Positions 9,490-64,000 of a stretch of 64,000 nucleotides of DNA are shown one piece after another. The position numbers and the translations under genes are program-made. The stretch is taken from NCBI GenBank assembly GCA_050084515.1, contig CM114271.1:33666001-33730000 (forward strand), written 5' to 3'. The notes beneath the pieces are model-generated. The model saw only the letters and a program-made list of their open reading frames with translations. It ran no database searches and was not told the DNA's origin. Each line of letters starts with the position of its first letter. The first letter of the stretch is position 1. Source of the DNA: Blasia pusilla (taxonomy: Eukaryota).

Positions 9490-10020
9490 AATTTCAACTC
9501 AAGATGACATAGTTGCACAAGATGAAAAATGAAAAGACCTTCTTTTCATTGAAGGTTTAATTGTTCGCGTCCAAAAATGACTTTTGGTAACAACTCCATT
9601 TTACTTGAAATTTTGCAAGGATGCTAGATGCACTATGGGGACCATGTGTGCCAAATATCAGCTCAAGATGACGTACTTGGACAAGATGAAAAAAAAAAAA
9701 AAAATTTCATTGAATGTTGAATGGGTTGGGTCCAAATATGAGTTAGTAATATGTGAGCTTTTGGTCACAAGTCCATTTTGGTTGAAACTTTGCAAGTGAG
9801 CTACATGCACCTTTGGGAACATGTGTACCAAATGTCATTTCAAGATGACATAGTTGCACAAGATGAAAAATGAAAAGATCTTCTTTCCATTAAAGGTTTG
9901 AGGACGCGAGTTCAAAAAATGAGTTAGCAATTTTTGAGCTTTTGGTCACAAATCCATTTTGCAGAAAAATTTTCAAAAGAGCTACATGCACAATGTGGAT
10001 CATGTGTACTAAAATTTTAA
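9490..10020. repeat. Tandem array, about 3 copies of about 170 bp
   Basis: tcaagatgac(a/g)ta(g/c)ttg(c/g)acaagatgaaaaa at about 9500, 9663 and 9840, each followed by similar ttttggt.aca...ccatttt blocks. Confidence 0.8.
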
Positions 10021-13222: not shown

Positions 13223-13350
13223 TGTCGTGCGCATACACATCGCTACACAACATACATTGCTATCACCAAACACACACACAAAAATGCACAATCCCATGCT
13301 AACTCATGGCATCCAAACAACGAGACGAGAAGTATCAAAATATCTCCAAT
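13223..13350 (-). repeat. Terminal repeat B2 (element 3' end)
   Basis: Near-identical to 13849-13976 (catacacatcgctacacaac...cccatgctaactcatgg...aaaatatctccaat). Confidence 0.9.
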
Positions 13351-13846
13351 TAAAATAAGGTCAAATCTCTCTCATAACACCATAACTCTCACATGTGTGC
13401 ACTCTCACATGTCTCTCTCAATGTCAAACCAAACCCACTCTTCTAATGAGAGGCTTGGGTTACACTCACAAGGCAAGGGATCATAGCTCCGCCGCCTCGT
13501 GCCAAGAGGTTCAACAAAGAGAGAATGAGCTTGCAAGCTCTCTCTCCTTGAGGTATACCCCTCCCCTCTCCCAAGCTCTCTCCATGGTAACCTATGCTTT
13601 CAAGTCATCTTCGTGGCTCTTGACCTGATGTAGGAGGTCAAGGGCCACTTCCCAAAATAGAAAGTCAACATATACTTAAAATGGTACTTACCTAAAATAG
13701 CAAGTTTCTCAATATGGCTCCAAATGAGCCGAAACGAAGGATCTCCCGGGGCATCAACAGGTCATCCTCGACCTCCTGAGCATGTCCTCCACTACTCACG
13801 AAGGCGCTCTACTAGATCTTACCGATCTATCCTAAAAGATGTGACA
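13351..13846 (-). repeat. Repeat A2
   Basis: Colinear with 23700-24202 and with the reverse complement of 54007-54526; on the element strand it starts TGTCAC. Confidence 0.9.
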
Positions 13847-13848
13847 AT

Positions 13849-13976
13849 TATCGTGCACATACACATCGCTACACAACATTCATCGTTGTTATCGAACACA
13901 CACACAAACACACACGATCCCATGCTAACTCATGGAACCCAAACAGCGAGATGAGAAGTACCAAAATATCTCCAAT
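13849..13976 (-). repeat. Repeat B1, preceded by a polypurine tract
   Basis: Copy of B2; the element strand reads ctAGGGGGGcg (13977-13988) directly upstream; joined to A2 by the dinucleotide AT. Confidence 0.88.
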
Positions 13977-14156: not shown

Positions 14157-14447
14157 CTATGTACATCTGGGACACATCCATCGTCCCTGAGGAACCCTAG
14201 TGAGAGGTGGCGTCAAACATGCCATATGCCACCCTCTTGAACATCCATCACAAACTAGCATAGTGGCTGCACCACGGGCAGAACCACACAACAATGTACT
14301 ATCAATGTCAGGAAGGTGACATGATGCATAGTTACGCACATGGTCCTTCCAAATCATACCATCGCGTCCCTCCAATAAGAGGACATCAGATGGAAAAACC
14401 TCATGCACTCTCAAGATAGTGCGCCTTGCAGTCACATCCAAGGTCAT
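14157..14447 (-). pseudogene. Integrase C-terminal region plus PHD finger
   Basis: ...CGSARGAATMLVCDGCSRGWHMACLTPPLTRVPQGRWMCPRC matches the C4HC3 PHD pattern (first Cys lost). Confidence 0.88.
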
Positions 14448-14480: not shown

Positions 14481-15420
14481 CTAATGAAACCTCCGGATGG
14501 TAGATCGATAACCACCCCCCTGAATAGTCACATACCTCAACGTATCCCGATGCTGCACAATCGCCAAGTTCTCAAACGCCATAGGCATCACTCTCCAAAA
14601 CAATTCAGCCCTTTGAGAACATGCTCGCATCCATATTTTAGGGTTATCAAGGTTCAAAACCTCACCAACATCTTGACAAATGGCCGCAGGTAAATCCGGC
14701 TCTCGGCCATAAAGTAGCAAGAACGTTGAGAAAGACGCTAAGGATGCCCGCTTGCTGAATCTATATCCCATCGCCAACCAGGGCAACTGGAGGTCCCAAT
14801 CTCCTAGGTGACCTCTCTGCAAGCCATACTTAAGTAATCCTCTCTTCACCGTCTGCACAACCCTCTTTGCTAGTCCATCCGCCTCAGGATGATCTTGCGA
14901 AGTGGTGTAGTGATCGATCAGCGCCTCATCACACAAGGCCTGAAACTTTGTACCCTGGTTTGTCAACACCTCAATTGGTGCACTATAATGACTCAACGCT
15001 CGATCTAGGAAGGCAAATGCTACTCCCTCACTCGCTTTGTCAAGCAATGCAACCAACTCTATCCACTTCGAGAAGTGCTCGACCACCACCAACACATAGC
15101 GACTATGGCCCTCTTTCAAAGGTAAAGGTCCTACAAAATCCAAACTCCATCTATAACCTAAACCCATGATCAGAAGTGGATGAAACTGTGGAGTCGGAGC
15201 ATTGAACAATGCCCGGACCCGATCACAAACTATACACCTAGCAACAAACTACTGAACGTCAGTCTGCAAGCCTCGCCACCAACACTGTACCTGGGGCAAG
15301 CTATATGTCCGCTTCACTCCAAAATGACCCAACAGCTCATGGGCATGACGTACCAAACGTGCTCTCTATGAAGGATGAGGCACTACACGTACTCTACCAT
15401 CCTCCAAAATGTGCAACACA
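14481..15420 (-). pseudogene. Gypsy DDE (rve) integrase
   Basis: WSLDFVGPLP...YVLVVVEHFSKW...EVLTNQGTKF...HPEADGLAKRVVQTVK...DWDLQLPWLAMGYR; upstream H/C zinc-binding remnants. Confidence 0.92.
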
Positions 15421-15739: not shown

Positions 15740-16900
15740 TTCAAACCATCTGCATCCTGGTTGAGCGTCCCAAGTCTATGCACCAACTAGAAGTCATACT
15801 CCTGCAATACAAGAGTCCACCTCCCAAGCTTCCCTGTAAGTTTGTCGGACTCTGTCAACCACTTAAGTGGTTGATGATCAATAATGATAGTAAAGGGATT
15901 GTTGAATAGATAACACCTAAAATATGCGACACAGTGCAGCCAAGCACTCACCCTCATATGAGTTATACTTTGCCTCTGCAGCGTTATTCGAGTGACTAGC
16001 GTAAGCCCTCACGAACTCTCTACCATCATCGTCATGCTGGGTGAGCACGGCTCCAAGCCCCAACATGCTCCAATCGGTTTGCAATTGGAAAAGACGCCCC
16101 CCCCATCGGTCTCCTCAATATGGGCGCAGATGTTAATCTGTCCTTGAGTAGCTGAAATGCTCTCTCCTGGTCAGCAAGGTCAACGACTTCGCAATCGAAT
16201 TGAAACCCTTGAGGTACCATCGATAGAAGGTCACCAATCCCATGAATGCACGAACTTGTCTCACATCTATAGGGCGTGGAATGCGTGAAATAACCTCTAC
16301 CTTTGTCTGCTGCATACCAAGGCCACCTGGGTATATCGTATGACCTAGATACTCAATCCAATCGTTGAAGAACTTACACTTGCCTGGATGTAGCTTTAGC
16401 CCATGTAATTGCAATCGTCGAAACACCTCCTCTAGATGTCGCTCATGCTCCTTAACCATTGAGCTAAAGACTACCATGCCATCAATTTAACACCTAGCAA
16501 AATCTAGACCTGCCAAGATCCTATCCATGACCCTCTGAAACTCAGCCGGGGCATTCCTTAACCCAAATGGTATGAACCGCCACAGGTACAAACAATCCTT
16601 CCCATGAGGATCGATGCCCCAAAATTCCGTCTTCGACATGTCCACCAATCTGATAGGCAGCTGATGGTATCTAGCTCAAAGATCTAACAAGCTGAAGACC
16701 TTTGCATGCCCAATAGCATCAAAGATCTCCTCAAGGGTTGGCTTGTTATACCTATCGGACTTCGTCTGCCGATTGATAGGTCGGTAATCTCCACACATCC
16801 GCTTATCCATCCAATTACCATACACATCCTTCTTGGGGGGCATGATAGTGACATATGCATACTCTCCATGTGACATCTCCACTAGCCTTGCTCAAACCAA
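15740..16900 (-). pseudogene. Gypsy reverse transcriptase and RNase H
   Basis: KRMCGDYRPIN, FSLLDL, IPFGLRNAPAEFQRVMD, degenerate *IDG (YIDD), KCKFF..IEYLGH; RNaseH LQTDWSMLGLGAVLTQ...YNSYEGECLA. Confidence 0.93.
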
Positions 16901-17479
16901 GCTCTGACTCATACTCTGAATTAGAGCATTCTCCATGTCACTGTACCTGTAGGGTTGTTGGAAGATCAGCGTGTCACTCGACAACTCAATGCGGATCTCT
17001 TGACCCTTCAGCATACCCAAATCCTACATACTAAATGCAAAACAACTCCTATAACTCCTAAGGAACATGTGTATCCTGTGCCGCTCTCCTCGTGTCAACT
17101 TAGGGCCCATATTTGGATCCCAAGTCTCCATCGTGACTACGGTAGGACTCTCTGGCGTGGGTGTCAGTGGTTGCTATGGTGCAACCCCCTCTCGGACAAG
17201 AGAACTTGACTGCTCCCCTGCATCCAACTGCAAAATTGGATCTCCCCTACATGAAGTACCCAGAACCACGCTCGATGTTGTGGTTGTCATCTCCTGGCAT
17301 ACCTGCAAAGCATCTCAAGAAGTCCAAGGGTGTCTCTCTTGATCATCCCCGGTGTGTCGATCTCCTCGAGTCTCACCCCTAGCCATTGCCTCAACCGTCT
17401 CGGTAGGCATGGGGCTCACCAACGCAACAGGTGTGATCTGTCGCATCCTCAAACGATGCTACTCAGCTACTCCTAAGAA

Positions 17480-18415
17480 AAAATCCATGTTAAGCAGTTC
17501 AGGTCTATCGCCTAACCCAAGACATGCGTCATGATGCCTCTAATAGTGACGGTACTGCCATCACTCCTGTGGGGAATCCCATCGCTCACTCTCGCTCATT
17601 GGCATTGGGCTCCACCAACTGCTGTACCTGGTCATCCCAAACCAAGCCAGGCCCGACCTCCTTGAATGCATAGGAAGCGGGAAAACTCACCAATGTGGGA
17701 AAGGCTGCTCGTGGCATGCCAATTCTGTTGGCCACAGTCAGCGACGATCGCTCATCGTGCCTAGCTGCCAGTGATCGATGTGCCAAAATAGAATCTACCA
17801 ACAAGGGACGCTCCACTCTTACGTACGCCCTCTGCAAAACCTCATGTGGCACCAAGTTGGTCCACCAAAGATGCGGGCGATGTGCTCTTGAACTTACACT
17901 CGCCGCATCCAACAACATTGCCAAGCCGATCCATGCGTGCATCTGATACGCACTCGTCACCACGCGGGACCTTGAATTGCCCAAAATTGGCACATTCTCG
18001 AGAATGTATGCTAAAGAACAAGACTGATGCTCTTGTAAATGTTGCAAGATCCGCGTCATCTCCCAAAATAACCTAGACCAAGAGTTAGCTAACCCACTAC
18101 CTCGTCCAACACTCGATTGGCCCTAACACGGCCAACCAGCAATGACCAAGTCTATGGTCCCTACCCGCTCAAAGTCCTATGCCCCCAACAATGAAATGTC
18201 GCTCGGTAGGGAACTTCGGTAGCCGTGGATGGCGGACGCAGACAACAAGTTGGGAGATTAGAGGCATAATTGCGCCACATGGTAAAGTGAAGCGCGCCTT
18301 GCAACATTATGAACCTCCACGTACAAGTACTGCTGCACGCGCACTCCTGCCTACAAAACAACATCTAAACCAGTGCCAATCCCTCCAAAGAGATTGAGCA
18401 CGCAAATACCCTCCT
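17480..18415 (-). pseudogene. DNMT3-like C5 cytosine DNA methyltransferase domain within pol
   Basis: Manual translation: motif I VLNLFGGIGTG (18369-18401), YLYVEV, DI, motif IV DLVIAGWPC*G (18123-18152), LFWE, motif VI YILENV, motif VIII LDAASVSSRAHRPHLWWTNL, motifs IX/X ERE*AMGFP...VLG*AIDLNCLTW. Confidence 0.93.
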
Positions 18416-18819
18416 TTGGGATGGATCACAAAATTGAGGTGGTGTCGAAAGGGGTCATAGTAGCACTCGTGGCTACCTCGGTTTCTCTGACCTGTCACGC
18501 TCTGGTGTAAATGTCTCGCTCCATGCAGTCTGCATATGCTAAGCAACTAAGAGTCGAAGCTTCTCAGTCGAGCCCCAAAGCGGCACCTCTCCTCCACGGA
18601 ATGATACAGCTACCATGACACTCCTCTATATATAAATTTCAGGAATGGGAGTGTCCTCTGAGTGGACATATCCCTCAATCAAATCACTAGGCCAAGTGAT
18701 GGCGCTACTAAATGCTGCTAAGGTTTCCATCTCTCCTTGCGGTCGTCCGATCACTCCATCAAACGGGTAATAAGCTAAGGCACCCATTACTAGACTGCCA
18801 TCTTGGTCTATAGGACGCT

Positions 18820-19200
18820 CAATCCTCCCAGTAATCCAGAGAAAACCCCATCGGGTACAACACTACTCCACCAACCAAGACGTCGTAGGACTCTACATCG
18901 ATTACTATCGCCTTAACTTGCACCAGGGACTTATCTGTAGGATATCCTAGGTGAAGTCTCCCCACGACCTCCTATCGGATGAAATACTGTGTGTTACTCG
19001 CTCCACCCAAGGATGTCTGTATGTGTAATGGATAACACTCCACATCGGCTCTCGTCAAGCCCAATCCTCTGAATGCCGATTTCCCCAACATCAGGGGTTA
19101 CGCTCATGAATCCAACAATATGCGTTGAAGACTTAAAACTCTACCTCCTCGACTCACCAAGTGGAAGACCTCGCCTCGATTATCTAGCAACACAATACCA
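18820..19200 (-). pseudogene. Retropepsin-type aspartic protease
   Basis: RILLDS*...PLMLGK and DVESYDVLVG; the second copy keeps RVLLDSGVQPLMLGK. Confidence 0.75.
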
Positions 19201-19779
19201 GGAGCGGCCATGACACACTCTATCGCGGGCCTAGCGGGCATCCTCGCCATCCTAGGAGTCGCAGACTGCCATGAATCTGACGTGGACGGCCCAAGCATAG
19301 GCTCCAAGGGCAGGTCCATCACCTTCTCTGCAATCACCCCTAAGTGTGACGCATGCAGGAACACCAACTCCACGTTCACATAGCGTAGCGGCCACGTAGA
19401 AAACCTCGGCGGGGGTATCTCCCAATGTCACAACATTAGAAGGAGAAAATAAAGGAGCGCGGTACACAACAGTGGCCGCCCCCAACAACGTGCTCAACAC
19501 ATGCTTCTCCTGAGCATCAGCAATAAGAGTCGTTGCACTCGCTTCTCCCATCACCCTCCGTGCTTGCACACCAGCAACATCACCAACTCTCCAGGAACTC
19601 TGATCAATATCCATCAATGGGGTCCTTATTGCCTCATACAACGTGAAAGACTCAGGAAGCTTGGTTTGTTTCTTGGCTTCCCCTTGGTGTGGATCCAACT
19701 CTACGGCTGCTCCACACGTTCCAATTGCGGCGGCCTACATCTAGGCAACCCCGCTCATCCGACCAGGATCCTCCATATC

Positions 19780-20860
19780 TCTAGCTACTCCATATGATGT
19801 CGATGCCACCGATCTGGCATCGAGTAGTAACCTGAGTGCCATAGCGGCAATTTTCTACTGTAGCTGCTATATTTGGCAGCCATCCCAACCTCATGCCCGA
19901 CGTCTCCCTCGATGAATCTAGGTGGTCAAACTCTACCTTCTTCACGGGAACCTCCATCACCCCCTCGAGCAACTCCAGCTCCTCGTCCCCTAATGAGACC
20001 ACCTGGTGCACGACCTCCATGCCCACGTACCCGGACCAGCTTCTCGCTCTGGTGCCCTCTCTGGCCCTTGGTCTAGACGTACTCGGGGTGTAAGCTGAAA
20101 CATCCGACACGTGTGTGACCGTACTTCTGACAATAGTCACACTGATAATCTCCTGGTGCAGCACCATCTCCTCCACCATGTTGAGGCATGCATCCATGAC
20201 CTTGACGGGTGCAATTGTGTTGGTGATGGGCTCCACTGAATGCCCAAAAACCCTAAACCTGGCGGCGGCTGCACCACATATGACGGCGCGGATCTCTATG
20301 GCACAGGCTCTCAATAACTTCCATGTGCTCGTGGTGCCACAATTGTCTCTTGGAATCCACGTTCATGCACTCGTGGTGCAGATACTCGTGCTTGCTCTCG
20401 CCTAGAGCTCATGGTGGCTACGCTCTCCTCCTCCATGTTGCGCTCAATGTTCTCGATAGTCCTAAAAACATCTCTTAACGTGGGTGAGGTGTTCATAAGA
20501 AGCATCCCCCTCCCGCATGTGTGTCCCTAGGGTTTGGTCCAACATCGCGTACCATGACTGGATAGTGTGGGCCTCTGTCACCCCTTGAGTGACGTTAATC
20601 AATCTGCATAAGCGAGTGTAGGCCTCAAGAGGCCTCTCTAGAGTTCCTAGCCCATTGTGAGTCACACCAATTCCTAGACTCCGCAATGAAGTCGCATAAC
20701 TCTATAGCGCCTATAACGCCCAAAAACCTACGCGGTCCTCTACCCCGGTCATCCATCTTGTACTCCCAAGCGGTAGGACCACTAATTGTGATGCACTAAC
20801 ACACTTCTCTATACTCTCCCTCTCGTCTGAAGATGACACAGAAGAAGGTCGAGGTGGTCC
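19780..20860 (-). pseudogene. Gypsy gag, degenerate, with about 370-bp internal deletion relative to copy 2
   Basis: Homologous to 55742-57090; EAYTRLCRLINVTQGVT; CCHC knuckle CDYCQKYGHTRVGC. Confidence 0.8.
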
Positions 20861-21945
20861 CTCATGTGGAGACCCTCGAAACCTCGCGCCACTCTACGTA
20901 AAACCTCTAGAGCTACTGCCGGGTCCACCATCTCGCCTCTCAAAGTCCCAAAATGACACCATGATGACCCTTATACCCCTCTCATGCGATCACTCCCAAC
21001 CTTACGAGTAATCACTCAATCACTCAAACTAACATGCGGCACTAAATCTACACTCTCTCTCACTGAGAAGGGGGTTGTGCAACAACAAGCAGCGTGGTGC
21101 GGCAAATCAACTACTGTCTTATCATCTCATGAACAACATATACTCTCAACAGTGGACACCCCAAACAAGTCTATGTCCCCTAAACCTGTATATCAACGAT
21201 GCTCTTAGCATTTGCACGAAATCCAATATCCCAAAAAACTACCCAATACCTGGAATCCCCTAACACGTACAAGCAAAAGACAAGAATGGGTAACCTGAAC
21301 AAATATCGATCGCTCCTTAGCAACTGTGAACTTCATCTCTAACTTGGTCGTGATGAAAAAATCCTCCAATCAGCAGGTCGTACCCCTATGGTACCAACGA
21401 TGCTCAAATCTCCTCATTGTGCGGTGCGGCACTGGCGTCACGAAACGGCTATAAAATGGCACGAAATTCGATAATTGGGGTGCGGCACTCCGCGGCATAC
21501 TCTCCTCAATCAGAAATACACACGGTCTACACCTTAGTCAAGGAGTAGCTCCGCGATTGAGACGGTGCGATGTCGCCACAAGCGGCACGACACAGAAATC
21601 GGCGACGCGTTGCGGCTACAAGCGTCATGGCACAGTAATCAATCATCGTCAAGCGGCTACCAATCACAACATAGAAGAATGAAATGAAAACTCAAAAACC
21701 ATCAACCCGAGGTCACCTGCCATCAATGGTTGATGACAAAATTGGGATGACGGCGGCGGCCACAACAAAGTACGTGGTGGCGGCTCAAGTCAGAGAATCA
21801 ACGATCGTCGTAGAAGACCGTCCACTCGTGAATGGCGAGTCCCAAGACGGTCGAGCGGCGCTAGGAGGCGGCAGCTGGCGATGGTCGTTGGTGGACCGTT
21901 GTCGTGTCGAGAATCTTTCTTCGAGCAATCGGCCTTCTAGCCGGT

Positions 21946-22532
21946 AGATGCAAAATCGATGCAAGGTGAACTCTCTAATAAGTTCTCCTTTTTCAATACA
22001 AAATTATGATGTACACTCTCCATTCTCTCATGTATCACAAATGGAAATCACTTCTTCGTAACATCGGACCCAAATTCTTAACTATAAAATCCCTATAAAC
22101 TATTTTACGTTTTGTACACACGAGGAAGATAGCACAATTAGTGTTAAACCTTACTTGACCAGGCCTATTGACATCCATGGATCGCTATATAAGGACATAC
22201 AAAGTACAATCCCATGTCCTTCCATATGTGACGATAGGAAGAATCAGGAGTTGGAGATTGCATGACTGGTTCATGAACGCCTCCCAAAGTGATAAACTAA
22301 ATAGCGAGTGAACCAGGTGCCTATCTACAAAGAGTACCTTGACATGGTAAGGATTGAGGAAAGGAAATTCAAAAGTGCTCCATCCCTATCCATGCGATGA
22401 CATTCTCTACTCTCCTCAAGAATGGATTTTGGCGGAGTTATTCTCCCAAGAGGGGTAATCCACTCTCATTGGGAAAGTAACAAGCCAAAACATCCGCTAT
22501 TTCAGTATGACTAAACTCCTCTAAGGTGACAA

Positions 22533-22563
<31 letters not shown>

Positions 22564-23129
22564 CAACACCACACTCTAGAAATCTCTCGAAGGTTAGACT
22601 ATGGTCAAGTTACTCTCCCAAGAGGGTGATCCACTCTCATTGGAAGAGCAAGCAATCCCAAAGCCATACACTCAAGAGAGACGCGAGAGACTGAAGATGT
22701 GGAATAGAAGGTGCTGAACCCTTGAAGGTCCCTCCTCTTTATAAACTCACAAGGGATCCACAAGAGTACGAAATAGAACTTATCTTATCTTGTGCCACAT
22801 GGCTTCCTCTCAAGGCTTAGCCAATCACATTTTGACACAAGTAGATTTCCTCTTATCTCTTCCAAAATATCCTCTTTTACCCACATGATATTTTCCAAAT
22901 TACCCCAACTAACCTAGCCACCAACCAAGATTACTTTTGCTTTTCATTAAAGCAACTACTTTACTTTTATTAAGTCATCTTTTATTTATTACCTCCTTTT
23001 CCTAAAGTTGGGCCCGCATAAAAGAGGCACCATAAAGAGGTTTAAACATAAGAATCTCCTTTTTCTAAGCCAATTTACTTAATACTAATGAAACTCTATC
23101 TAACACTTAATGACGAAGGAGTTTACACA
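21946..23129. mobile_element. Probable solo LTR of an unrelated family nested in the Gypsy 5' region
   Basis: Absent from copy 2; ends ggagtttacaca; contains a (CA)n run, a duplicated ctcccaagag...ccactctcattgg block and a TATA-like site; candidate TSD ccggt/ctggt; left boundary uncertain. Confidence 0.5.
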
Positions 23130-23684
23130 CTGGTTGATTTTACTATACGACACCGTTGAGGGTGAAGATGGATGGCGGACGGAAACAGTGGACTCTAGAT
23201 GGCGACCGTTGACCGTCGAAGATGACTATGACGGCAACAGCCGCCTCCGGTATAGCGGCTAGTTTAGGGTTGAACAATTTTACCCTAAAACTTGCCTGGC
23301 AATGGCAGGTTTGCAAGATCAACCATAACTTTTTGCTCACAGCTTAGAATCGTGCATCGTTTCTTCCACAACGGATAAAATTGGCAGCGCTTCCGTGCTA
23401 ATTTCTTCCACAAAAAACTTCAGACCTTTAAAATCACAAACCAGCAAGCTACTTGGTGCTCTCAAGAGCATTAGAATGGGGAAATCTGCCCCCAAACTTC
23501 ATCTCTAAAGAAATTTGGGTAGCGCTTCCGCGCGCCATTCTTCTACACAAAAAATTGGCAATGGAAAACTGTAAAACAAGTAGCGTTCGCTCTGGTGAGC
23601 ACTCCCATGAGCCGGTGAACAAGGAACATTGTCTCCAACCTACAACAATAGTGAGTAACCAGCGAGCTGCTCCATTGAAGCTCT

Positions 23685-23699
23685 CTCATTCTCTCTTTG
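23685..23699 (-). promoter_or_regulatory. Self-priming primer-binding site
   Basis: Element strand CAAAGAGAGAATGAG directly after A1; complementary to CTCATTCTCTCTTTG inside repeat A (13515-13529; partly deleted at 23854-23866). Confidence 0.75.
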
Positions 23700-24202
23700 T
23701 AAAAGAAGGTCAAATCTCTCTCACAACACCATAGCTCTCACATGTGTGCACTCTCACATGTCTCTCTCAACGTCAAACCAAAACCCATTCTCCTAATGAG
23801 AGGCTTGGGTTACACTCACAAGGCAAGCAACCATAGCTCCTCCGCCTCGTGCCAAGAGAGAATGAGCTCTCAAGCTCTCTCTCCTTGAGGTATACCCTTC
23901 CCCTCTCCCAAGCTCTCTCCATGGTAACCTATGCTCCCAAGTCACATGCGTGGCTCTTGACCTGATGTAAGAGGTCAAGGGCCACTTCCAAAAATAGAAA
24001 TTAGATCAAATACTCAAAATGGTACTTACCCAAAATAGCAAGTTCCTAAATATGGCTCCAAATGAGCCGAAATGAAGGAGAAACCTGCTCTCTCAAGTTT
24101 CTCGGGGCCTCAACAGGTCATCCTTGACCTCTTGAGCATGTCCTTCACTACTCGCGAAGGTGCTCTAGTAGATCTCATTGATCTATCTTAAAAGACGTGA
24201 CG
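23700..24202 (-). repeat. Terminal repeat A1 (element 5' end)
   Basis: Homologous to A2; not followed by B. Confidence 0.9.
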
Positions 24203-24206
24203 GAGA

Positions 24207-26554: not shown

Positions 26555-26850
26555 TGGGTGCACGGGCTGGGCGCGGGCCTTGGAGCCCACACGCGGGCTA
26601 GGGCACGGGCCGTGGAGCCCGCACACGGGTTAGGGTGCAGGCTAGGGACGGGCCCTAGAGCCCAAAAGTGGGCTAGGGCCCGACGGAGGCCCAAGCTAAA
26701 AATGGGCGTGGAGCGTGATGCGGACTAGGAAAGCAAGGGCAAAACGCTCGGGTGGCATTGGCCCAGGTGCGGGCCGTGGGCATGTGGGCCCATGGAGCCC
26801 GCACAGACATGTCGGTCCTTGGGACGGACATAAGTCTGCGTGCAACCTTG
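26555..26850. mobile_element. hAT-like MITE remnant
   Basis: Repeated cgggc.../gagccc motifs; ends gggacggacataagtctgcgtgcaaccttg like other copies. Confidence 0.6.
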
Positions 26851-27816
26851 AGCTAGATACCATTAACTACCTATCATATTGGAGGTCGGGCAGAATACGA
26901 CATTTTGGGGCATCAATCCTCACCGGAAGGATTGTTTGTCCTAGTGGTGCTTCTTACCATTTGGGTTAAAGAACGCCTCAACAAAGTTTCAAAGGGTCAT
27001 GAATAGAATCTTCGCAAGTCTAAATTTTGCTAGATCTCACATTGATGACATCGTTATCGTAGTCATTAGGGCCACGGTTGAGAAACATGAGCAACTCAGC
27101 GACATCTAGAGGAGGTGATTTGACAACTGTAGTTACATGGGCTAAAGCTGCATCTAGGCAAGTGCAAGTTCTTTTACGATCAGATTGTGTATCTGGGTCA
27201 TATGATATACCCAAGTGGCAAGTGACCTTGGTATTTAGTAGACGAACATAGAAGCTATCTCATACATTCCATGCCCTATAGATGTGAGTCAAGTTCGTGC
27301 ATTCATGGGATTCATGAACTTCTATTGACGATACGTCAAGGGTTTTAGTTCAATTTTGAAGCCACTAACCTTGCTGACCAAGATGGATTATGTGTGGCAT
27401 TTGGGAGGATGAGCAAGTCTTAGAGATAGCATTTGAATTGCTATCTTGACATCCGCGCCTACACTGAAGGGACCGATTAGAGGGCATCCTTATGATCCTT
27501 TCCAGTTGCATACAGATTGGAATATGTTGGGGCTTTGAGCGGTGCTCACCTAGCATGACGATGAGGGAAGAGAGTTCGTGGTGGCTTACGCTAGTCGCTT
27601 GAACAATGTTGCATAGGCAAAGTTTAGCTCGTATGAGGGTGAGTGCTTGGCTATAATATGGCCTATTGCGCATTTCAGGCATTACTTATTCGACATCTCC
27701 TTTACCATATCATTGAATATCAACCACTAAAGTGGTTGATGAAGTCCGGCAAGTTTATATGGAATCTTGCGAGGTGGGGGCTCTATTGTCGTAGGAGTAT
27801 GATTTCTAGGTTGTAC
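26850..27816 (+). mobile_element. Degenerate RT-RNaseH fragment of the same Gypsy family
   Basis: LPFGLKNASTKFQRVMNRIFASLNFARSHIDD, GKCKFFYDQIVYLGH, LHTDWNMLG, SYEGECLA; colinear with the reverse complement of 15790-16680. Confidence 0.85.
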
Positions 27817-34809: not shown

Positions 34810-34915
34810 GTTTTGTAGACACCGGAAACGTACCGGTTGTCACGAAAAAACTCCCCCCCCCGTTTTTGTAGACACCGGAAATGTACCAGTTGTCACGAAA
34901 AACTCCACCTCCCCC
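34810..34915. repeat. Tandem duplication of about 52 bp
   Basis: ttttgtagacaccggaaa(c/t)gtacc(g/a)gttgtcacgaaaaa occurs twice. Confidence 0.85.
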
Positions 34916-53800: not shown

Positions 53801-55741
53801 ATATTCTATTATTATCTATCTTTCCTGAAATCCTCTTTCATTCTTGTATATGTATATTTTATTTTTTATTTAATATAAGGGAAAAAAAATCTATTTCTAT
53901 AGATTCCCAAATAGAATACCTATTTGAAAAAAATTTGTGGGATATCACATGAATCCAAGGAAACATAAGTTATAATTCAATTGAAAGGTAGATTTTCCCC
54001 TCATTCCGTCACTTACGTCTTTTCGGATAGATAGGTGAGATCTAGTAGAGCGCCTTCGTGAGTAGTGGAGAAGAGGCTCAGTAGGTCGAGGATGACCTGC
54101 TGAGGCCCGAGAAACCTGAGGGAGAAGGTTTCCCTTCGTTTCGGCTCATTTGGAGCCATATTGAAGAACCTACTATTGTAGGTAAGTACCAGTTTGAGTA
54201 TATGATCAACTTTCTATGTTTGGTAAGTGACCCTTGACCTCCTACATCAGGTCAAGAGCCAAGGAGGGGACTTGGGAGCATAGGTTACCATGGAGAGAGC
54301 TTGGGAGAGGGGAGGTGTATACCTCAAGGAGAGAGAGTTTGACAGCTCATTCTTTCTTTGTTGAACATCTTGGCATGAGGCGGCGGACCTATGGTCTTGC
54401 TTGCCTTATGTGTGTAACCCAAGCCTCTCATTAGGAGAGTGGGTTTGGTTTGACATTGAGAGAGACATGTGAGAGTGCACACATGTGAGAACTATGGTGT
54501 TGTGAGAGAGATTGGATCTTATTTTACAAAGAGAGAATGAGTGAGTGAGAGAGCTTCATGGGGAGAACTCGCTGGTCACTCACTAGTTTTGCAGGTTGGG
54601 GATCGTATTCCCCGTCCAGCGGTTCATGGGAGTGCTCATCGGAGCAAGAGCTGCTTACTTGTGATGTTTCCTTTGCCGATTTTTCGTGTGTAAGAGTGGC
54701 ACGCGGAAGCGCTGCCCAATTTTTGATAGGGATTGAGTATGGGGGCGGGTTTCCCCATGCTGGTGCTCTCAGGACCACCATATAGCTTTCTGATTTATAT
54801 TCTCACATGTTTTACATTTTTTTGGGAGAAATCGGCACGGAAACGCTGCCAAATTTTGTGTAGGTGAAAGAGACATTGGACTTTACGACAATCCCTGTCA
54901 ATTTTTACTGGAATATTCGATTCCAAATATTTTTGACACTATTGTAGATCATCAAGCTATGCACGATGTGCAACAAACGGTGCACAATTTAGAGTCAGAA
55001 AAAAAAGTTATGGTCAATCTTGCAAAATTGCCATTGCTCAAATTGCACCGTCTCAATCGCGGAGCCGGTCCTTCACTAAGGTGCACAGCGTGTGAATTGC
55101 TGATTGAGGAGGGTATGCCACCAAGTGCCGAGCCGTTTGTAGCCATTCCGTGCCGTGAGTGCCACATCGGATTGTTGGACCTGCACCGCACATTGAGGAG
55201 GTTTGAGCAGCGTTAGTACGAGAGGAGTACGACTTGCTCATTGGAGGAGTTGTCTTCACGACCGAGTTCGGGTCAAGACTTGCAATTGTCGAGGAGCAAC
55301 ATCGACATTATTGTTAGGTTACCCATTTTGGTCTCTTACCCTACACGTGTGAGGGATTTCCGGATATTGGGAAGTTATTTGGGATATTGGGTTTCGTACT
55401 GATGCTAGGAGCATCAATGATGTATGGGTTTAGGGGACATAGACCTGTGTGGGATGTCAAGAGTTGAAGATGGTTTGTTGATGAGACGATAGATCGGTTG
55501 ATTTGCCACACCATGATGCTCGTTGCCGCACAACACACGTCTCAGTGAGAGAGTGTAGATTGAGTGCCGCATGTTTAGTTTGAGTGATTGAGGGATTACT
55601 CACGAGATTGAGAGTGATTGTGTGAGAGGGGCACGAGGGCCATCATGGTGTCCTTTCGGGATTTTGAGAGGCGAGGTAGTGGACCTGAGAGTAGCTCTAG
55701 AGGGTTTACTTGGAGTGGTGCGAGGTTTCTAGGGTCTCCAC

Positions 55742-57091
55742 GTGAGAGACCACCTCAATCTCCTTCTATGTCGTCTTCAGACAAGGGGGGAGCGTATAGA
55801 GGAGTGTGTTAGTGATCCACGGTATACATTGAGTGGTCCTACCAGTTGGGCGTACGAGATGGACAACCGGGGTAGAGGACCGCGTAGGTTTTTGGGTGTT
55901 GTAGGCACTATAGAGCTACACGACTTCATTCCGGAGTTCAGGAGTTGGTGTGACTCACAACGGGCTAGGAACTCTAGAGAGTTCAACCCATTTACAGCAT
56001 GGAATGGTATGTTCCAGCATGTAGAGGGTACGCCCATGGACAATTACTATGAGTTCTCCCACATATATGCCCAGGATATTGAGGCATGGCGACTCTACTA
56101 TGACCCACACTTTGTGTCATGGACGGAGCCATTCCCAAATGAGGAGGAGAAGTTAGGAGAGGCTACTTCCTCTTCCACTAGTGATGTTTTAGGAGGGTTC
56201 ACTCGCACTAGAGTAGTTGCACCATCTAGTCGGGTTCGTCCCAGGTTCAACCCCGTGGTTGAGTTCTTCGTTGAGTTGAGGGCGAGCTACCAAGGTATAT
56301 GGACGGAGAAGTTGCGGAGCATCCACAACTTCCATAGGCGCCCGTGTGAGAGTTTGCGTGAGGCTTACACTTGCTTGCGCCGATTGATCAACGTCACTCA
56401 TGGAGTGACAAAGGCTTAGGTTATCCACTCATAGTACGGGCTGCTAGATCGGACCCTAAGACACGGGTGCGGGAGGGGTGCTTCTTATGAACACCTCCCC
56501 TAAGTTGAGAGATGTTTTGAGGACCGCCGAGAACATTGAACGCAACATGGTGGAGGAGGCGTAGCCACCATGGGTTCTGGGCGAGAGCAATCATGATTGT
56601 CTGCACCACCTGTACAGCAACGTGGACTCCGTGATAGGTCGATTGTGGTACCACGAGCTCGGGGAGGATATTGGGAGGCCGTGCCATAGAGACCTGCGCC
56701 TTCATATGCGGCTAAGCAATAGCCGCCTACGATTACTTGTTGGTCATGTGGTGGAGCCCATCATCAACGTGATTGCACTCCTCAAGATCATGGACGTGTG
56801 CCTCAGCATGGAGGAGGAGATGGTGCTGCACCAGGAGGTTATCAGTGTGACTATTGTCAGAGGTATGGTCATACATGCGCCAGGTGTTTCAGTTTACATC
56901 TTGACTTACATCTAGACCAAGGGCCAGAGAGGGCACCAGAGCGAGAAGCCGGTCCGGGTGGGCCTAGAGATTGTGCACCAGGTGGTCTGGTTGGGGGACG
57001 AGGAGCTGGAGTTGCCCAACAGGGTGGTTGAGTTGCCCGTGGAGGAGGTAGAGTCCCACCACCTACATGCATCAAGGGAGATGCCAGGCGT
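55742..57091 (+). pseudogene. Gypsy gag (continues after 62434)
   Basis: 225-aa ORF plus downstream fragments containing two CCHC zinc knuckles. Confidence 0.8.
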
Positions 57092-62433: not shown

Positions 62434-63095
62434 TGCGTGAGGCTAGGATGGCTACTCAGATACAACAGCTACATGAGCATATTGCCGCTATGGCATTGAG
62501 GTTACGTGATGCCGGATCCGTGGCATCGACATCATATGGAGCAGCCATAGATATGGAGATCCTGGTTGGATGTGCGGGGTTGCCCAAATGGAGGCCGCCG
62601 CAGTTGTGACGCGTGGAGCAGCCGTAGAGTTGGATCCACAGCGGGGGAAAGCTAGGAAATAGATCAGGCTTCCTCAATCTTTCACGTTGTCTGAGGCGAT
62701 GAGGACCCCATCGATGGGTCCTGATCAGAGTTCTTGGAGAATTGGTGATGTTGTTGGTATGCAGGCATGGAGGGCGATGGGAAAAGCGAGTGTGACGACT
62801 CCTATTGTTGATGCTCAGGAGGGGCATGTATCAAGCACGTTGTTGGGGGCGGCCACCATTGTGTACCGCGTTCCTTTATTTTTGCTTCCAATATTATGAC
62901 ATTGGGAGGTATATCCGCCGAGGTTTTGCGGCTGGACGCTACGCTATGTGAGCGTGGAGTTGGAGTTCCTCCATCACATTCAGAGGTGATGGACCTACCC
63001 TTGGAGCGGATGCTGGGGCCGTCCACGTCAGATTCATGGCAGGTTCCGGTTGCTAGGATGGCGGAGATGCCTGCTAGACCCGCGAAGAGCGTGCC

Positions 63096-63725
63096 ATGGT
63101 TTCTCATGGTGTTGTGTTGCTGGATAACCGGGGAGAGGTCTTCCAATTGGTGAGTCCCGAAGATAGAGCTTTTAGTCCGCAACGCGTCTTGTTGGATTCA
63201 GGAGTGCAACCCCTGATGTTGGGGAAAGCGTCATTCAGAGGATTGGGCATGATAAGAGCCGATGTAGAGAGTTGTCCATTCCGGATATAGACATCCTTGG
63301 GTGGAGTGAGTACCACATAGTATATCACGCGACAAGAGGTCATGGTGAGGATTCGCCCGGGACACCCTACAAATGAGTCTGTGATGCAAGGCAAGGCGAT
63401 AGTGATTGATGTAGAGTCCTACGACATCTTGGTTGGTGGAGCAGTGTTGTACCCGATGGGGTTTTCCTTGGATTACTGGGAGGAATCAACGTCCTATAGA
63501 CCAGGATGGCAGTCAGGTGATGGGCGCCTTAGCTCATTACCCGTTCGATTCACAAGTGCAATGATGGAGCGACGGCCAGGAGAGATGGCGACCTTAGCAG
63601 CATTTAGCAGTGCCATCACTCATCACAATGATTTGATTGAGGGACATATCCATGTAGAGGATACTCCCGTTCTTGACATTTCTATGCAGAGGAGTGTCAT
63701 GGTAGCCGCATCAGTCCGTGGATGA
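63096..63725 (+). pseudogene. Gypsy aspartic protease (copy 2)
   Basis: RVLLDSGVQPLMLGK...DVESYDILVGG. Confidence 0.78.
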
Positions 63726-63899
63726 GAGGTGCAGCTTTGGGGCTCGATTGAGGAGCTTCGATGCTTAGCCATTGAGCATGTGCAAACCACGTGGAGCGAA
63801 ACGTTTGCACCAGAGTGTGAAGGGTCAGAGGAACCCCAAGTAGGCAGGAGTGCTGCTATGATCCTTTTGGACACCACCCCGATTTTGTGGTGCATCCTA

Positions 63900-64000
63900 G
63901 AGAAGGATATTCGGGTGTTGGATCTCTTTGGAGGGATCAGCACTGGGTTAGCTATTGTTTTGCACAATGCGCGTGCAGTAGTACCTGTACGTGGAGATTG
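63900..64000 (+). pseudogene. Start of the DNMT3-like domain (copy 2)
   Basis: EKDIRVLDLFGGISTGLAIVL (SAM-binding motif I), followed by YLYVE. Confidence 0.85.

What the first reader, a model, noticed from the sequence alone, without database searches (positions are those of the whole stretch)
17480..18415. Gypsy retrotransposon encodes its own DNMT3-like cytosine methyltransferase between protease and RT
Seen: the canonical C5-MTase motifs occur in order inside pol (FGGIGTG, AGWPC, ENV, DAxxVxxxAHRxxLWWTNL, ERExxMGFP...LG). A second, diverged copy shows motif I at the same position (63900-64000), so the domain is a family trait and not a one-off capture. Known: these motifs resemble the DNMT3 catalytic domain (IRVLSLFDGI, GGSPC, FENV, IDAxxVSAAHRARYFWGNL), and DNMT-carrying retrotransposons have been reported in dinoflagellates and the charophyte Klebsormidium. 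Inference: a land-plant lineage of such elements that may methylate its own cDNA or integration site. This copy is inactivated by stops.
Basis: partly seen in the sequence, partly recalled or inferred. Interest (0 to 1): 0.92.

Follow-up and report, generated by a model that had tools for sequence, protein, structure and literature searches.

The report
Dead Gypsy retrotransposon carrying a DNMT3-like methyltransferase
This is a decayed copy of a plant jumping gene whose own polyprotein includes a DNA cytosine methyltransferase of the DNMT3 type, a kind of element so far described in print from a green alga and here shown to be abundant, transcribed and conserved in a land-plant-type lineage.

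Summary
On the minus strand, 18464-17476 encodes a C5 cytosine methyltransferase domain (PF00145, 36.7 bits against a cut-off of 22). Its best solved relatives are DNMT3A/B.

It lies inside an LTR-bounded Ty3/Gypsy element of about 11 kb (24203-13351). The order is gag, protease, DNMT, RT, RNase H, integrase, PHD finger.

This copy is dead: 27 stops, at least 9 frame changes, LTRs 89.5% alike.

The domain is a family trait:
- A second copy at 54015-64000 (+) shows it at the same place.
- Marchantia, Calypogeia and Sphagnum proteins are collinear.
- 47 of 80 metagenome loci show protease-DNMT-RT order.
- 1.4% of the DNA reads laid from one run of the same species label fit the element, with no dip over the DNMT.

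Three RNA runs show strand-biased transcripts across the element, DNMT part included. Catalytic residues are kept in 257-259 of 260 relatives. dN/dS is like that of the protease.

The kind is known from Klebsormidium (PMC5890265), so this is a new member, not a new kind. What the enzyme does for the element is untested.

The parts
23697..24203 (-). 5' LTR of copy 1 (about 505 bp)
   Evidence: blastn 24201-23700 against 13845-13351, 85% with gaps; global alignment 443 of 495 aligned columns identical, K2P 0.114. The exact ends are read by eye.
20007..20741 (-). gag remnant, with a CCHC zinc knuckle
   Evidence: tblastn with Marchantia P0074 residues 9-41, 173-211 and 303-373 in three frames. 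The knuckle C-x2-C-x4-H-x4-C is readable in the frame-2 translation. No Pfam hit at E<=0.01.
18762..19289 (-). retropepsin-like protease, with 4 stops
   Evidence: tblastn with P0074 residues 578-755, 51% identity. An LLDS-x-A active-site stretch is readable. No Pfam hit in this copy; relative P0135 has Asp_protease_2 at the matching place, 22 bits, below Pfam's cut-off of 24.3 (E 2.8e-4).
17476..18464 (-). DNMT3-like C5 cytosine methyltransferase domain (the finding), with 8 stops and 2 frame changes
   Evidence: PF00145; DNMT3A best in PDB; 55.5% identity to P0074 residues 862-1178; motifs I, IV, VI, VIII, X in canonical order.
16334..16834 (-). reverse transcriptase (RVT_1)
   Evidence: Pfam E 3.8e-21; tblastn RT-RNase H 17122-15932, 58% identity to Marchantia P0076.
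15796..16093 (-). RNase H
   Evidence: PF17917 and PF17919 in two frames.
14898..15374 (-). integrase (H2C2 zinc domain and rve core)
   Evidence: PF17921 E 7.6e-13 and PF00665 E 9.9e-8. The longest open frame of the element is 14481-15248, 255 aa.
14163..14291 (-). PHD finger at the C-terminal end of the integrase
   Evidence: PF00628 E 1.1e-9; best PDB matches are CHD4, PHF12, KAT6A and KDM5B PHD fingers; collinear with the INT-PHD part of P0092.
13351..13845 (-). 3' LTR of copy 1
13225..13350 (-). 126-bp repeat of the stretch that precedes the 3' LTR (13851-13976); it obscures the original 3' flank
   Evidence: 87% identity. In other copies this stretch is followed by an LTR start (loose ends at 13223).
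54015..57089 (+). copy 2, 5' part: LTR (54015 to about 54526), leader, gag (55874-56908)
   Evidence: blastn 79-87% to copy 1; tblastn with P0074 residues 9-354.
62435..64000 (+). copy 2 resumed: protease and the first residues of the DNMT domain (from about 63858), cut by the window's end
   Evidence: blastn 81% to 19896-18312; tblastn; motif I readable.
26848..27809 (+). third, partial relative (RT-RNase H piece only)
   Evidence: blastn 74% to 16679-15787; tblastn with P0076.

Best explanation
Shown: 24203-13351 (minus strand) is an old, dead copy of a Ty3/Gypsy LTR retrotransposon. Its single gag-pol reading direction carries, between protease and reverse transcriptase, a complete DNMT3-type C5 cytosine methyltransferase domain with unpermuted motifs. 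A PHD finger follows the integrase. The domain is an inherited part of a large element family. That family has two arrangements: protease-DNMT-RT (this one), and RT-RNaseH-DNMT-integrase-PHD. It occurs in records whose sources name bryophytes, Closterium and chlorophyte algae. In the organism whose reads fit the window, the family is abundant and transcribed.

Inferred: in live copies the domain is an active DNA cytosine-5 methyltransferase. It is made as part of Gag-Pol and so travels with the enzymes that make and insert the cDNA. The most likely job (my odds about 0.35) is de novo methylation of the element's own new DNA, at or just after integration. The integrase PHD finger would tie the complex to chromatin with unmethylated H3K4. 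This would be a reader-plus-writer pairing like ADD-DNMT3 of animals. Whether that would hide the new copy, restrain the element or serve something else is open.

This particular copy does nothing. It has itself been eroded mainly by C-to-T and G-to-A changes.

The confidence of 0.8 is for the identity of the element and for an active DNA methyltransferase in live copies, not for the specific job.
For: Identity of the domain:
- PF00145 hits the window copy.
- A profile of 15 domains gives DNMT3A/B/C E 4e-20 to 1e-18, DRM2 4e-10 to 4e-9, M.HhaI 5e-7, DNMT2 4e-5, and no DNMT1 at E<=1e-3.
- The AlphaFold model of natural relative P0002 (59% identical to the window copy) has pLDDT 92.3. Its listed Foldseek ranks 1-49 are all DNMT3A/3B/3C, with target-normalised TM 0.40-0.85, and 0.79-0.85 for chains holding the catalytic domain alone.

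Element anatomy: LTR pair, gag knuckle, protease, RT, RNase H, integrase, PHD in that order.

Family trait:
- Copy 2 shows the domain at the same place.
- Marchantia P0074 and P0076 and Sphagnum P0095 are collinear with the window.
- Of 80 metagenome loci, 47 show PR-DNMT-RT with or without INT-PHD and 15 more show PR-DNMT.
- DNA read depth over the DNMT bins (1634-1689) lies between that of the protease/gag bins (1146-1950) and the RT/INT bins (2415-3013), without a dip. 174,171 of 12,434,590 records read (1.4%) were laid on the element.

Constraint:
- The catalytic Cys is kept in 257 of 260 full-length domains, the motif VI Glu in 259 of 260, and two motif VIII Arg in 258 and 256 of 260.
- Window-to-Marchantia identity is 56% for the DNMT, against 58% for RT-RNase H and 45-51% for the protease.
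- Median pairwise dN/dS is 0.54 for DNMT (52 loci), 0.59 for protease, 0.43 for integrase and 0.37 for RT. One pair of stop-free copies has dN 0.29 and dS about 1.8.

Breadth: 412 cluster representatives at E<=1e-30. Of 260 full-length domains, 161 are type B, 41 type A and 58 undetermined. The type B rows form one clade.

Expression: three RNA runs give depth 24-45 over the DNMT bins on one read direction against 0.4-3.7 on the other.

PHD type: the best solved matches are CHD4, PHF12, KAT6A, KDM5A/B PHD1, DPF2/3, PHF21A, ATXR5 and AIRE. That these read unmodified H3K4 is recalled, not tested.

Decay: this copy has T or A where most reads have C or G at 688 of 1448 listed places, against 293 the other way. 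CpG observed/expected is 0.70-0.75.
Against: No activity was measured for any member of this clade. The only activity data in print that I read concern Symbiodinium elements (PMC5890265, section 11).

Most copies are dead. Only 3 of 80 metagenome loci have a stop-free single-frame DNMT of 300 residues or more, and both window copies are broken. dN/dS of 0.54 is only moderate, and the recent pair L003-L008 gives 0.84.

The Pfam match of the window copy covers motifs IV-VI only.

No cellular DNMT3, DRM, CMT or MET1 sequence could be put in a tree, so 'DNMT3-type' rests on PDB profile and fold ranking. No Klebsormidium sequence appeared in any hit list, so kinship with the published elements is not shown.

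In 113 of 260 relatives the Pro of the Pro-Cys motif is Glu; the effect of this on catalysis is unknown. (The window's clade has Pro-Cys.)

RNA depth falls from the 3' to the 5' end, and 66-73% of the RNA reads laid are under 90% alike. It is therefore unknown whether any intact copy is among those transcribed. The strand reading assumes the usual library type.

The role of the PHD finger and the target of methylation are inference only.
Confidence: 0.8

Rival explanations
1. One-off capture: a piece of a host DNMT3 gene was inserted or transduced into this single copy and is not part of the element's biology.
For: Retrotransposons do pick up host fragments. This copy is dead, so nothing here demands function.
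Against: The same domain stands at the same place in copy 2, which is about 80% identical. It also stands there in named Marchantia, Calypogeia and Sphagnum proteins and in 62 of 80 metagenome loci with protease upstream. Read depth shows no dip over the domain. The domain is continuous, without introns, in the element's reading direction.
Confidence: 0.01
2. The enzyme acts in trans on the host genome, or on rival elements, rather than on the element's own new DNA. For instance it could blur the host's methylation landscape or silence competitors.
For: PMC5890265 (section 11) raises accidental or deliberate methylation of the host genome by such enzymes. The family is abundant (1.4% of the reads laid) and transcribed, so the protein dose could matter.
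Against: In both arrangements the domain is kept inside Pol, next to RT or integrase, rather than as a free ORF. That fits action inside the particle or integration complex. There is no direct data either way.
Confidence: 0.15
3. Self-restraint or host benefit: the domain marks new copies for silencing. This lowers the transposition rate and harm to the host, and so helps the family persist.
For: This is offered as a possibility in PMC5890265 (section 11). Nearly all copies seen are dead and carry the mark of C-to-T decay.
Against: C-to-T decay and dead copies are usual for any methylated plant retrotransposon and need no element-borne enzyme. Selection for restraint at the level of the element is hard to maintain. 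The family is nonetheless abundant.
Confidence: 0.15
4. The domain no longer methylates DNA. It methylates RNA or RNA-DNA hybrids, or it is a non-catalytic partner of host enzymes in the manner of DNMT3L.
For: PMC5890265 considers RNA methylation for its LINE-borne DNMT. Glu replaces Pro before the catalytic Cys in 113 of 260 relatives.
Against: The catalytic Cys, the motif VI Glu-Asn and the motif VIII Arg residues are kept in 249-259 of 260, unlike DNMT3L. The profile matches DNMT3 at E 4e-20 but the tRNA enzyme DNMT2 only at 4e-5. The fold ranks with DNA-bound DNMT3 structures.
Confidence: 0.07

Closest known systems
KnitGypsy-Dnmt3 of the charophyte Klebsormidium nitens (de Mendoza et al. 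2018, PMC5890265; sections 9 and 11 and passages read)
   Same: An intronless DNMT3-related domain with unpermuted motifs inside the Pol polyprotein of a Gypsy-type element. Key catalytic residues are kept, there are signs of purifying selection, and the host is a streptophyte.
   Different: The paper's Fig. 4c legend says that element's repeats are arranged as in DIRS elements; here there are two plain direct LTRs. The paper stresses few copies in K. nitens; here the family takes 1.4% of the DNA reads laid. The paper's main text names no PHD finger (0 occurrences). The domain order of the K. nitens element could not be seen, because figures and supplements are not held. No K. nitens sequence was retrieved, so shared descent is untested.
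SymbioDIRS-Dnmt3 and SymbioLINE-Dnmt of Symbiodinium (same paper)
   Same: A retrotransposon-borne DNMT inside Pol. The paper also reports two domain orders within one family (passage read).
   Different: Those are DIRS elements (tyrosine recombinase) and LINE elements in dinoflagellates. Here the element has a DDE integrase, LTRs, gag and protease.
Animal DNMT3A/3B/3C catalytic domain
   Same: It is the best sequence-profile and fold match, with motifs I, IV, VI, VIII and X in the same order.
   Different: About 20-23% identity. The window element has no PWWP or ADD domain upstream, and the domain is embedded in a retroelement polyprotein. The only chromatin-reader module is a PHD finger about 1100 residues downstream, after the integrase.
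Plant DRM2 (domains-rearranged methyltransferase)
   Same: A plant de novo methyltransferase of DNMT3 descent.
   Different: DRM has permuted motifs (stated in PMC5890265, section 9), whereas here the order is canonical. The profile matches DRM2 only over positions 8-141, at E about 1e-9, ten orders of magnitude weaker than DNMT3A.
Chromoviruses (Gypsy elements with a chromodomain after the integrase; PMC2864245 and PMC3350952 seen in search listings only)
   Same: A histone-reader module is fused to the C-terminal end of a Gypsy integrase, presumably to steer integration.
EpiLTRs and DAM-carrying LTR elements (bioRxiv 10.64898/2026.05.21.726589; abstract and three passages read)
   Same: LTR retrotransposons that assemble 'epigenetic toolkits' from a methyltransferase and a chromatin reader. 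That preprint lists 'streptophytes (Gypsy-DNMT3)' as a previously described case.
   Different: Those carry adenine methylases and a DNMT that is sister to DNMT4, with chromodomains. Here the element carries a DNMT3-type enzyme with a PHD finger.

Membership tests
C5 cytosine methyltransferases (Pfam PF00145) | Profile match above the curated cut-off | tested here: met
   36.7 bits against a cut-off of 22, E 4.3e-9, over residues 87-165 of the X-read translation; 32.5 bits in the long frame.
C5 cytosine methyltransferases (Pfam PF00145) | Motifs I (FxGxG), IV (PC), VI (ENV), VIII (RxR) and X (GN/GQ-type) present in canonical order | tested here: met
   Read directly, and aligned to 260 relatives. 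In this copy a stop follows the Pro-Cys, and motif X is split by a frame change.
DNMT3 clade of eukaryotic DNMTs | Closer to DNMT3 than to DRM, DNMT1/MET1, CMT, DNMT2 or bacterial enzymes | tested here: met
   Among solved structures only. Profile E is 4e-20 for DNMT3A, 4e-10 for DRM2, 5e-7 for M.HhaI and 4e-5 for DNMT2, with no DNMT1. The listed Foldseek ranks 1-49 are all DNMT3A/B/C.
DNMT3 clade of eukaryotic DNMTs | Placement inside DNMT3 in a rooted tree with cellular plant and animal DNMT families | not tested
   No cellular reference sequences could be obtained from the tools. The 150 listed representatives were all of the element-borne kind.
DNMT3 clade of eukaryotic DNMTs | N-terminal PWWP and/or ADD reader domains, as in animal DNMT3A/B | tested here: not met
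   Pfam finds none in the element. Protease lies upstream and RT downstream. The 2025 survey PMC12344493 notes that some DNMT3s lack companion domains (passage read).
Ty3/Gypsy LTR retrotransposons | Two direct LTRs flanking gag and pol | tested here: met
   LTRs of about 505 bp, 89.5% identical, about 10.35 kb apart.
Ty3/Gypsy LTR retrotransposons | Pol order protease, RT, RNase H, integrase (integrase after RT), with RVT_1-type RT | tested here: met
   Pfam RVT_1, RT_RNaseH, Integrase_H2C2 and rve in that order. Protease by collinearity with Marchantia proteins.
Ty3/Gypsy LTR retrotransposons | Target-site duplication, primer-binding site, polypurine tract | tested here: inconclusive
   No matching short direct repeat at the two flanks by eye. 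The 3' flank is occupied by a 126-bp repeat of internal sequence. No tRNA-like match was sought beyond ARAGORN, which found no tRNA gene.
Gypsy-DNMT3 elements as described for Klebsormidium nitens (PMC5890265) | Intronless DNMT3-related domain inside the Pol ORF of a Gypsy-type element | tested here: met
Gypsy-DNMT3 elements as described for Klebsormidium nitens (PMC5890265) | Repeats arranged as in DIRS elements (Fig. 4c legend) | tested here: not met
   Plain direct LTRs at both ends. This feature describes the K. nitens family and may not define the kind.
Gypsy-DNMT3 elements as described for Klebsormidium nitens (PMC5890265) | Sequence kinship (one clade) with the K. nitens element DNMTs | not tested
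   No protein named Klebsormidium appeared. The paper's supplements are closed.

The most novel reading that the evidence does not exclude
The window belongs to an ancient clade of Gypsy elements spread across the green lineage. Each element would carry a self-contained de novo methylation module: a DNMT3-type writer in Pol plus an H3K4me0-type PHD reader on the integrase. The module would have been kept through at least one reshuffling of domain order, and in bryophyte-type genomes it is abundant and expressed. If the enzyme is active in vivo, part of the de novo methylation of these genomes would be written by transposons rather than by the host. The relation between element-borne and cellular plant DNMT3, that is, who gave the gene to whom, would then be open. 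Marchantia polymorpha, a tractable model, carries many such copies and could be used to test this.
Probability: 0.2. Interest if true: 0.8.

Novelty: new member of a known kind. Interest (0 to 1): 0.5.

Why it matters
DNA methylation is the host's main weapon against transposons, so a transposon that brings its own de novo methyltransferase raises the question of what it gains. In print the case rests on dinoflagellates and one charophyte alga.

The evidence here points to such elements being widespread:
- 412 cluster representatives at E<=1e-30.
- Two domain orders within the family.
- Presence in records that their sources name as liverworts and peat mosses.
- Abundance and transcription in the window's organism.

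That would move the open question of what element-borne DNMTs do into organisms where it can be tested genetically, notably Marchantia.

The pairing with a PHD finger of the kind that (by recall) reads unmethylated H3K4 gives a concrete, testable model of targeted self-methylation.

Tried and rejected
- **Whole genome:** none is held for this window, so copies could not be counted in an assembly.
- **Sequencing runs:** no RNA holder was listed by the index. I laid raw-read runs of the same species label instead.
- **tRNA and Rfam:** no tRNA gene and no Rfam family in the window, so no primer-binding-site assignment.
- **Target-site duplication:** not found.
- **Organism:** names stayed coded. 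The element is only about 68% identical in DNA to the 80 metagenome loci, so those hosts are not the window's species.
- **ESM Atlas:** on Calypogeia P0004 it returned its own streptophyte cluster and phage methylase clusters at similar scores. This was uninformative.
- **Pfam elsewhere in the window:** Pfam on ten other long frames found a nested Copia RT and one sub-threshold RING-finger match (zf-rbx1, 18.4 bits against a cut-off of 31); the other eight frames gave nothing. Pfam on two of six frames of the CpG-rich 34-47 kb block found nothing.
- **Klebsormidium relatives:** a third protein search, with the DNMT part of a type B polyprotein, was meant to reach them. It gave chlorophyte and Marchantia names only.
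- **Cluster names:** look-ups for 20 unnamed proteins named only Closterium and Scenedesmus.
- **Literature:** searches for a land-plant report found none. Only PMC5890265 and the 2026 preprint name Gypsy-DNMT3 elements. Supplements, which may list such copies, are closed.
- **Not run:** homodimer prediction, because the report does not rest on it.
- **Rejected readings:** one-off host-gene capture, a DRM-type enzyme and a DNMT2-type RNA enzyme (see rivals).
Full report
**What is in the sequence.**

Read from 18458 down to 17481 with X at stops, one frame gives the C5 methyltransferase motifs in canonical order:
- FGGIGTG (motif I)
- AGWPC, followed directly by a stop (IV)
- ILENVP (VI)
- SRAHRPHLWWTN (VIII)
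- NERE-x-AMGF (X)

The last conserved stretch (LG-x-A-x-DLNCLTWI) stands in a neighbouring frame after a frame change near 17526.

Three searches show the match is not chance. Pfam gives PF00145 at 36.7 bits against a curated cut-off of 22, but only over residues 87-165. The best solved relatives are DNMT3A catalytic domains at E 4e-11, and DRM2 comes five to six orders weaker. Natural proteins match up to E 5.5e-113 at 59% identity.

**The element around it.**

Two direct repeats of about 505 bp (24201-23700 and 13845-13351) lie about 10.35 kb apart. They are 89.5% identical over 495 aligned columns, K2P 0.114.

Between them, always on the minus strand, Pfam and collinearity with relatives give this order:

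| Part | Coordinates | Basis |
|---|---|---|
| gag remnant with CCHC knuckle | 20741-20007 | |
| retropepsin-like protease | 19289-18762 | |
| DNMT domain | 18464-17476 | |
| RT (RVT_1) | 16834-16334 | |
| RNase H | 16093-15796 | |
| integrase zinc and core domains | 15374-14898 | |
| PHD finger | 14291-14163 | |

So the element is a Ty3/Gypsy LTR retrotransposon with two accessory modules.

The copy is dead. The pieces collinear with relatives hold 27 stops and change frame at least nine times. The DNMT part alone has 8 stops and 2 frame changes. The longest open frame in the element is 255 codons.

I found no target-site duplication. The 3' LTR is followed by a 126-bp repeat of the stretch that precedes it.

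**Family trait, not a one-off.**

Four lines agree.

1. *A second copy in the window.* Copy 2 lies on the plus strand from 54015 and is about 80% identical. It is split by a nested Ty1/Copia element (57090-62434, RVT_2). It resumes with protease and reaches motif I of the DNMT (LDLFGGISTGLA) at 63858-63999, where the window ends.
2. *Named relatives with the same order.* Proteins that their sources name as Marchantia polymorpha, M. paleacea, Calypogeia fissa and three Sphagnum species match at 46-59% identity. Marchantia P0074 (gag-protease-DNMT), Marchantia P0076 (protease-DNMT-RT-RNase H) and Sphagnum P0095 are collinear with the window.
3. *Metagenome loci.* Of 80 loci fetched with the domain profile, 47 show protease-DNMT-RT, and 19 of those run on to integrase-PHD. 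A further 15 show protease-DNMT up to the contig's end. 9 start with DNMT-RT, 6 show the DNMT alone and 3 are odd.
4. *Raw DNA reads.* I laid raw DNA reads of a run with the same coded species label as the index holders, sampled at about 1 in 100, at 80% likeness. 174,171 of 12,434,590 records (1.4%) fit the element. Summed depth rises steadily from gag (1146-1222), through protease and linker (1450-1950) and DNMT (1634-1689), to RT and integrase (2415-3013). There is no dip over the DNMT. Of 308 joints only 15 were listed, so a minority form without the domain is not excluded.

**What kind of methyltransferase.**

A profile of 15 domains was searched against all PDB chains:

| Target | E-value |
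|---|---|
| DNMT3A/3B/3C | 4e-20 to 1e-18 |
| DRM2 and tobacco DRM | 4e-10 to 1e-8 |
| M.HhaI | 5e-7 |
| DNMT2 | about 4e-5 |
| DNMT1 | none at E<=1e-3 |

An AlphaFold model of the natural relative P0002, with a 48-row alignment, has mean pLDDT 92.3. Its listed Foldseek ranks 1-49 are all DNMT3A, 3B or 3C; target-normalised TM-scores run from 0.40 to 0.85, and are 0.79-0.85 for chains that hold the catalytic domain alone. The motif order is canonical, unlike the permuted DRM.

I could not place the clade in a tree with cellular DNMT families. No cellular reference sequences were obtainable: the 150 best of 8066 representatives were all element-borne forms.

**Breadth and two arrangements.**

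The profile finds 412 representatives of 50%-identity clusters at E<=1e-30. Many are polyproteins of 1000-3456 residues.

I held 260 proteins that cover at least 280 of the 338 profile positions. This is a set pooled from four searches, not a random sample. Their arrangement is:
- 161 have the DNMT after RT or before integrase. This is type B: RT-RNase H-DNMT-integrase-PHD, and 101 of them show all four markers.
- 41 have it after protease or before RT. This is type A, like the window.
- 58 show the domain alone.

Named type B proteins come from the chlorophytes Monoraphidium, Cymbomonas and Scenedesmus. Named type A proteins come from bryophytes and Closterium.

Two trees place the window copy:
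- *Quick tree, 80 of the 260 rows* (all 41 type A rows; 32 of 161 type B rows, of which 4 were named and 28 drawn at random; 7 of 58 undetermined rows, the window among them). All 32 type B rows fall in one clade with SH-aLRT 98. The window sits in a clade of 15 rows (99) that are type A or undetermined.
- *Careful tree, 50 rows rooted on Closterium.* The window lies inside a clade with 100/99 support. That clade has 38 rows and contains all 24 rows named as bryophytes. The window is unresolved at its base on a long branch of 0.41.

This is the basis for calling it a land-plant-type lineage. The window's organism itself stayed unnamed.

**Is the domain kept by selection?**

Across the 260 domains the key residues are kept as follows:

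| Residue | Kept in |
|---|---|
| catalytic Cys | 257 |
| motif VI Glu | 259 |
| motif VI Asn | 249 |
| motif VIII Arg (two positions) | 258 and 256 |
| motif X Gly | 254 |

An oddity is that the Pro before the Cys is Glu in 113 of them.

Between the window and Marchantia, the DNMT is as conserved (56%) as RT-RNase H (58%) and more so than the protease (45-51%).

I computed pairwise Nei-Gojobori dN/dS among the metagenome copies, leaving stop codons out and keeping pairs with dS between 0.1 and 1.5:

| Domain | Loci | Pairs | Median dN/dS | Quartiles |
|---|---|---|---|---|
| DNMT | 52 | 1121 | 0.54 | 0.48-0.62 |
| protease | 37 | 372 | 0.59 | 0.48-0.73 |
| integrase | 19 | 164 | 0.43 | 0.35-0.50 |
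| RT | 23 | 204 | 0.37 | 0.30-0.47 |

Most of these copies are dead, which pulls every value towards 1. The point is that the DNMT behaves like the protease, an undoubted working part.

Two points count against an easy reading. Only 3 of 80 loci have a stop-free, single-frame domain of 300 residues or more. Of the three pairs among those, two give dN about 0.28 with saturated dS of about 1.8, and the recent pair gives 0.84.

**Expression and decay.**

Three RNA-seq runs of the same species label put 0.07% of their reads on the element (7233, 8194 and 7873 records). The reads lie ten- to fifty-fold more on one read direction. With the usual library type this means sense transcripts of the minus-strand element.

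The DNMT bins have depth 24-45 against 0.4-3.7 on the other direction. Depth falls from the 3' end (150-240) to gag (12-29). 66-73% of the RNA reads are under 90% like this copy, so they come from other copies. Whether any transcribed copy is intact is not known.

In the DNA run, this copy differs from most reads by having T or A where they have C or G at 688 of 1448 listed places, against 293 the other way. CpG observed/expected is 0.70-0.75 with TpG excess. A copy of a methyltransferase-bearing element has thus itself decayed in the way expected of methylated DNA.

**The PHD finger.**

The window's own PHD stretch and that of an intact type B relative both match best the PHD fingers of CHD4, PHF12, KAT6A/B, KDM5A/B (first finger), DPF2/3, PHF21A, ATXR5, AIRE, UHRF1 and KMT2C/D.

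From memory, not from any call, most of these read histone H3 with unmethylated Lys4, and none of the classic H3K4me3 readers is in the 60 listed.

In the metagenome loci the finger follows the integrase in 20 of the 32 loci that show DNMT, RT and integrase in element order. In the protein set it follows in 128 of 161 type B proteins.

**How it most likely works.**

Shown: the enzyme domain is translated as part of Pol, in two different positions, but always between the enzymes that process the particle's contents.

Inferred: it is packaged with Gag-Pol and meets the newly made DNA. The PHD finger on the integrase steers or holds the integration complex on H3K4-unmethylated chromatin. The DNMT then methylates the new copy, and perhaps its surroundings, de novo.

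This follows the reasoning given for DIRS elements in PMC5890265 (section 11). I give this about 0.35. Action in trans on the host genome and self-restraint get about 0.15 each, and a non-DNA or non-catalytic role about 0.07. A one-off capture is excluded.

**Comparison with what is known, and novelty.**

PMC5890265 describes intronless DNMT3-related domains in the Pol of a Gypsy element of Klebsormidium nitens. It reports conserved residues and Ka/Ks under 0.2. It says the repeats are arranged as in DIRS elements and remarks on fewer copies (sections 9 and 11 read). Its main text names no PHD finger.

A 2025 survey (PMC12344493, passage read) and a 2026 preprint (10.64898/2026.05.21.726589, abstract and passages read) refer to such elements in 'streptophytes' by citing that work.

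Five full-text searches found no report of such elements in land plants, of the two arrangements, or of the PHD pairing. Supplements, which may list them, were closed, and most subscription journals are not in the library.

The window therefore holds a new member of a known kind. The wider picture that the searches opened is what deserves follow-up:
- presence in records that their sources name as bryophytes
- high copy number and transcription
- a family spread across the green lineage with two domain orders
- an H3K4me0-type reader

**Limits.**
- No cellular DNMT3 and no K. nitens sequence is in the trees.
- No activity data exist for this clade.
- The read-depth figures include any sequence at least 80% alike over part of a read: 69% of the DNA reads were laid only partly.
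- The protein sets are pooled from searches and are not censuses.

Noticed in passing
window 57090-62434 (+): A Ty1/Copia element is nested inside copy 2 of the DNMT-bearing element. It has an open 479-codon frame (60307-61746) with RVT_2 at E 1.2e-76, so it looks much younger than its host copy. Its CpG observed/expected is 0.42.
   Followed up: partly
window 34000-47000: This block has GC 0.52 (up to 0.56) and CpG observed/expected 1.13, so it lacks the CpG depletion seen everywhere else in the window (0.42-0.75). There are no Pfam hits in the two frames tried or in four long ORFs. A 160-bp tandem repeat (3.7 copies) lies at 35658-36236. Its nature is unknown; it may be unmethylated or recently arrived DNA.
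   Followed up: partly
window 13225-13350 and 13851-13976: The 126 bp just before the 3' LTR of copy 1 are repeated (87%) just after it. In other copies of the family this stretch is followed by an LTR start (loose ends at 13223). The 3' flank may therefore be the remnant of another copy or of an aberrant recombination.
   Followed up: partly
window 21571-23299 (-), peak 22794-23162: The leader of copy 1 holds about 1.7 kb that copy 2 lacks. RNA depth there (121-234) is several times that of the neighbouring bins, and many read starts lie at 22903. This may be an inserted small element or an internal promoter.
   Followed up: no
window 26848-27809 (+): A lone RT-RNase H fragment, 74% identical to copy 1, with no DNMT-bearing part next to it within the blastn matches.
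   Followed up: no
window 8435-8790 and 9488-10013: Tandem or near-tandem repeats with periods of about 143 and 177-181 bp in the AT-rich flank.
   Followed up: no
relatives P0001-P0365: In 113 of 260 element-borne DNMT domains, mostly type B, the Pro of the catalytic Pro-Cys dipeptide is Glu, while the Cys is kept. Motif VI is often ENT or ENA instead of ENV. This is an unusual active-site variant worth testing.
   Followed up: no
protein P0332: A 1974-residue type B polyprotein (RT, RNase H, integrase, PHD, DNMT-like) is named by NCBI as coming from a 'Minisyncoccia bacterium' MAG. It groups with the Monoraphidium protein in the tree, so the contig is probably algal DNA binned into a bacterial genome.
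   Followed up: partly
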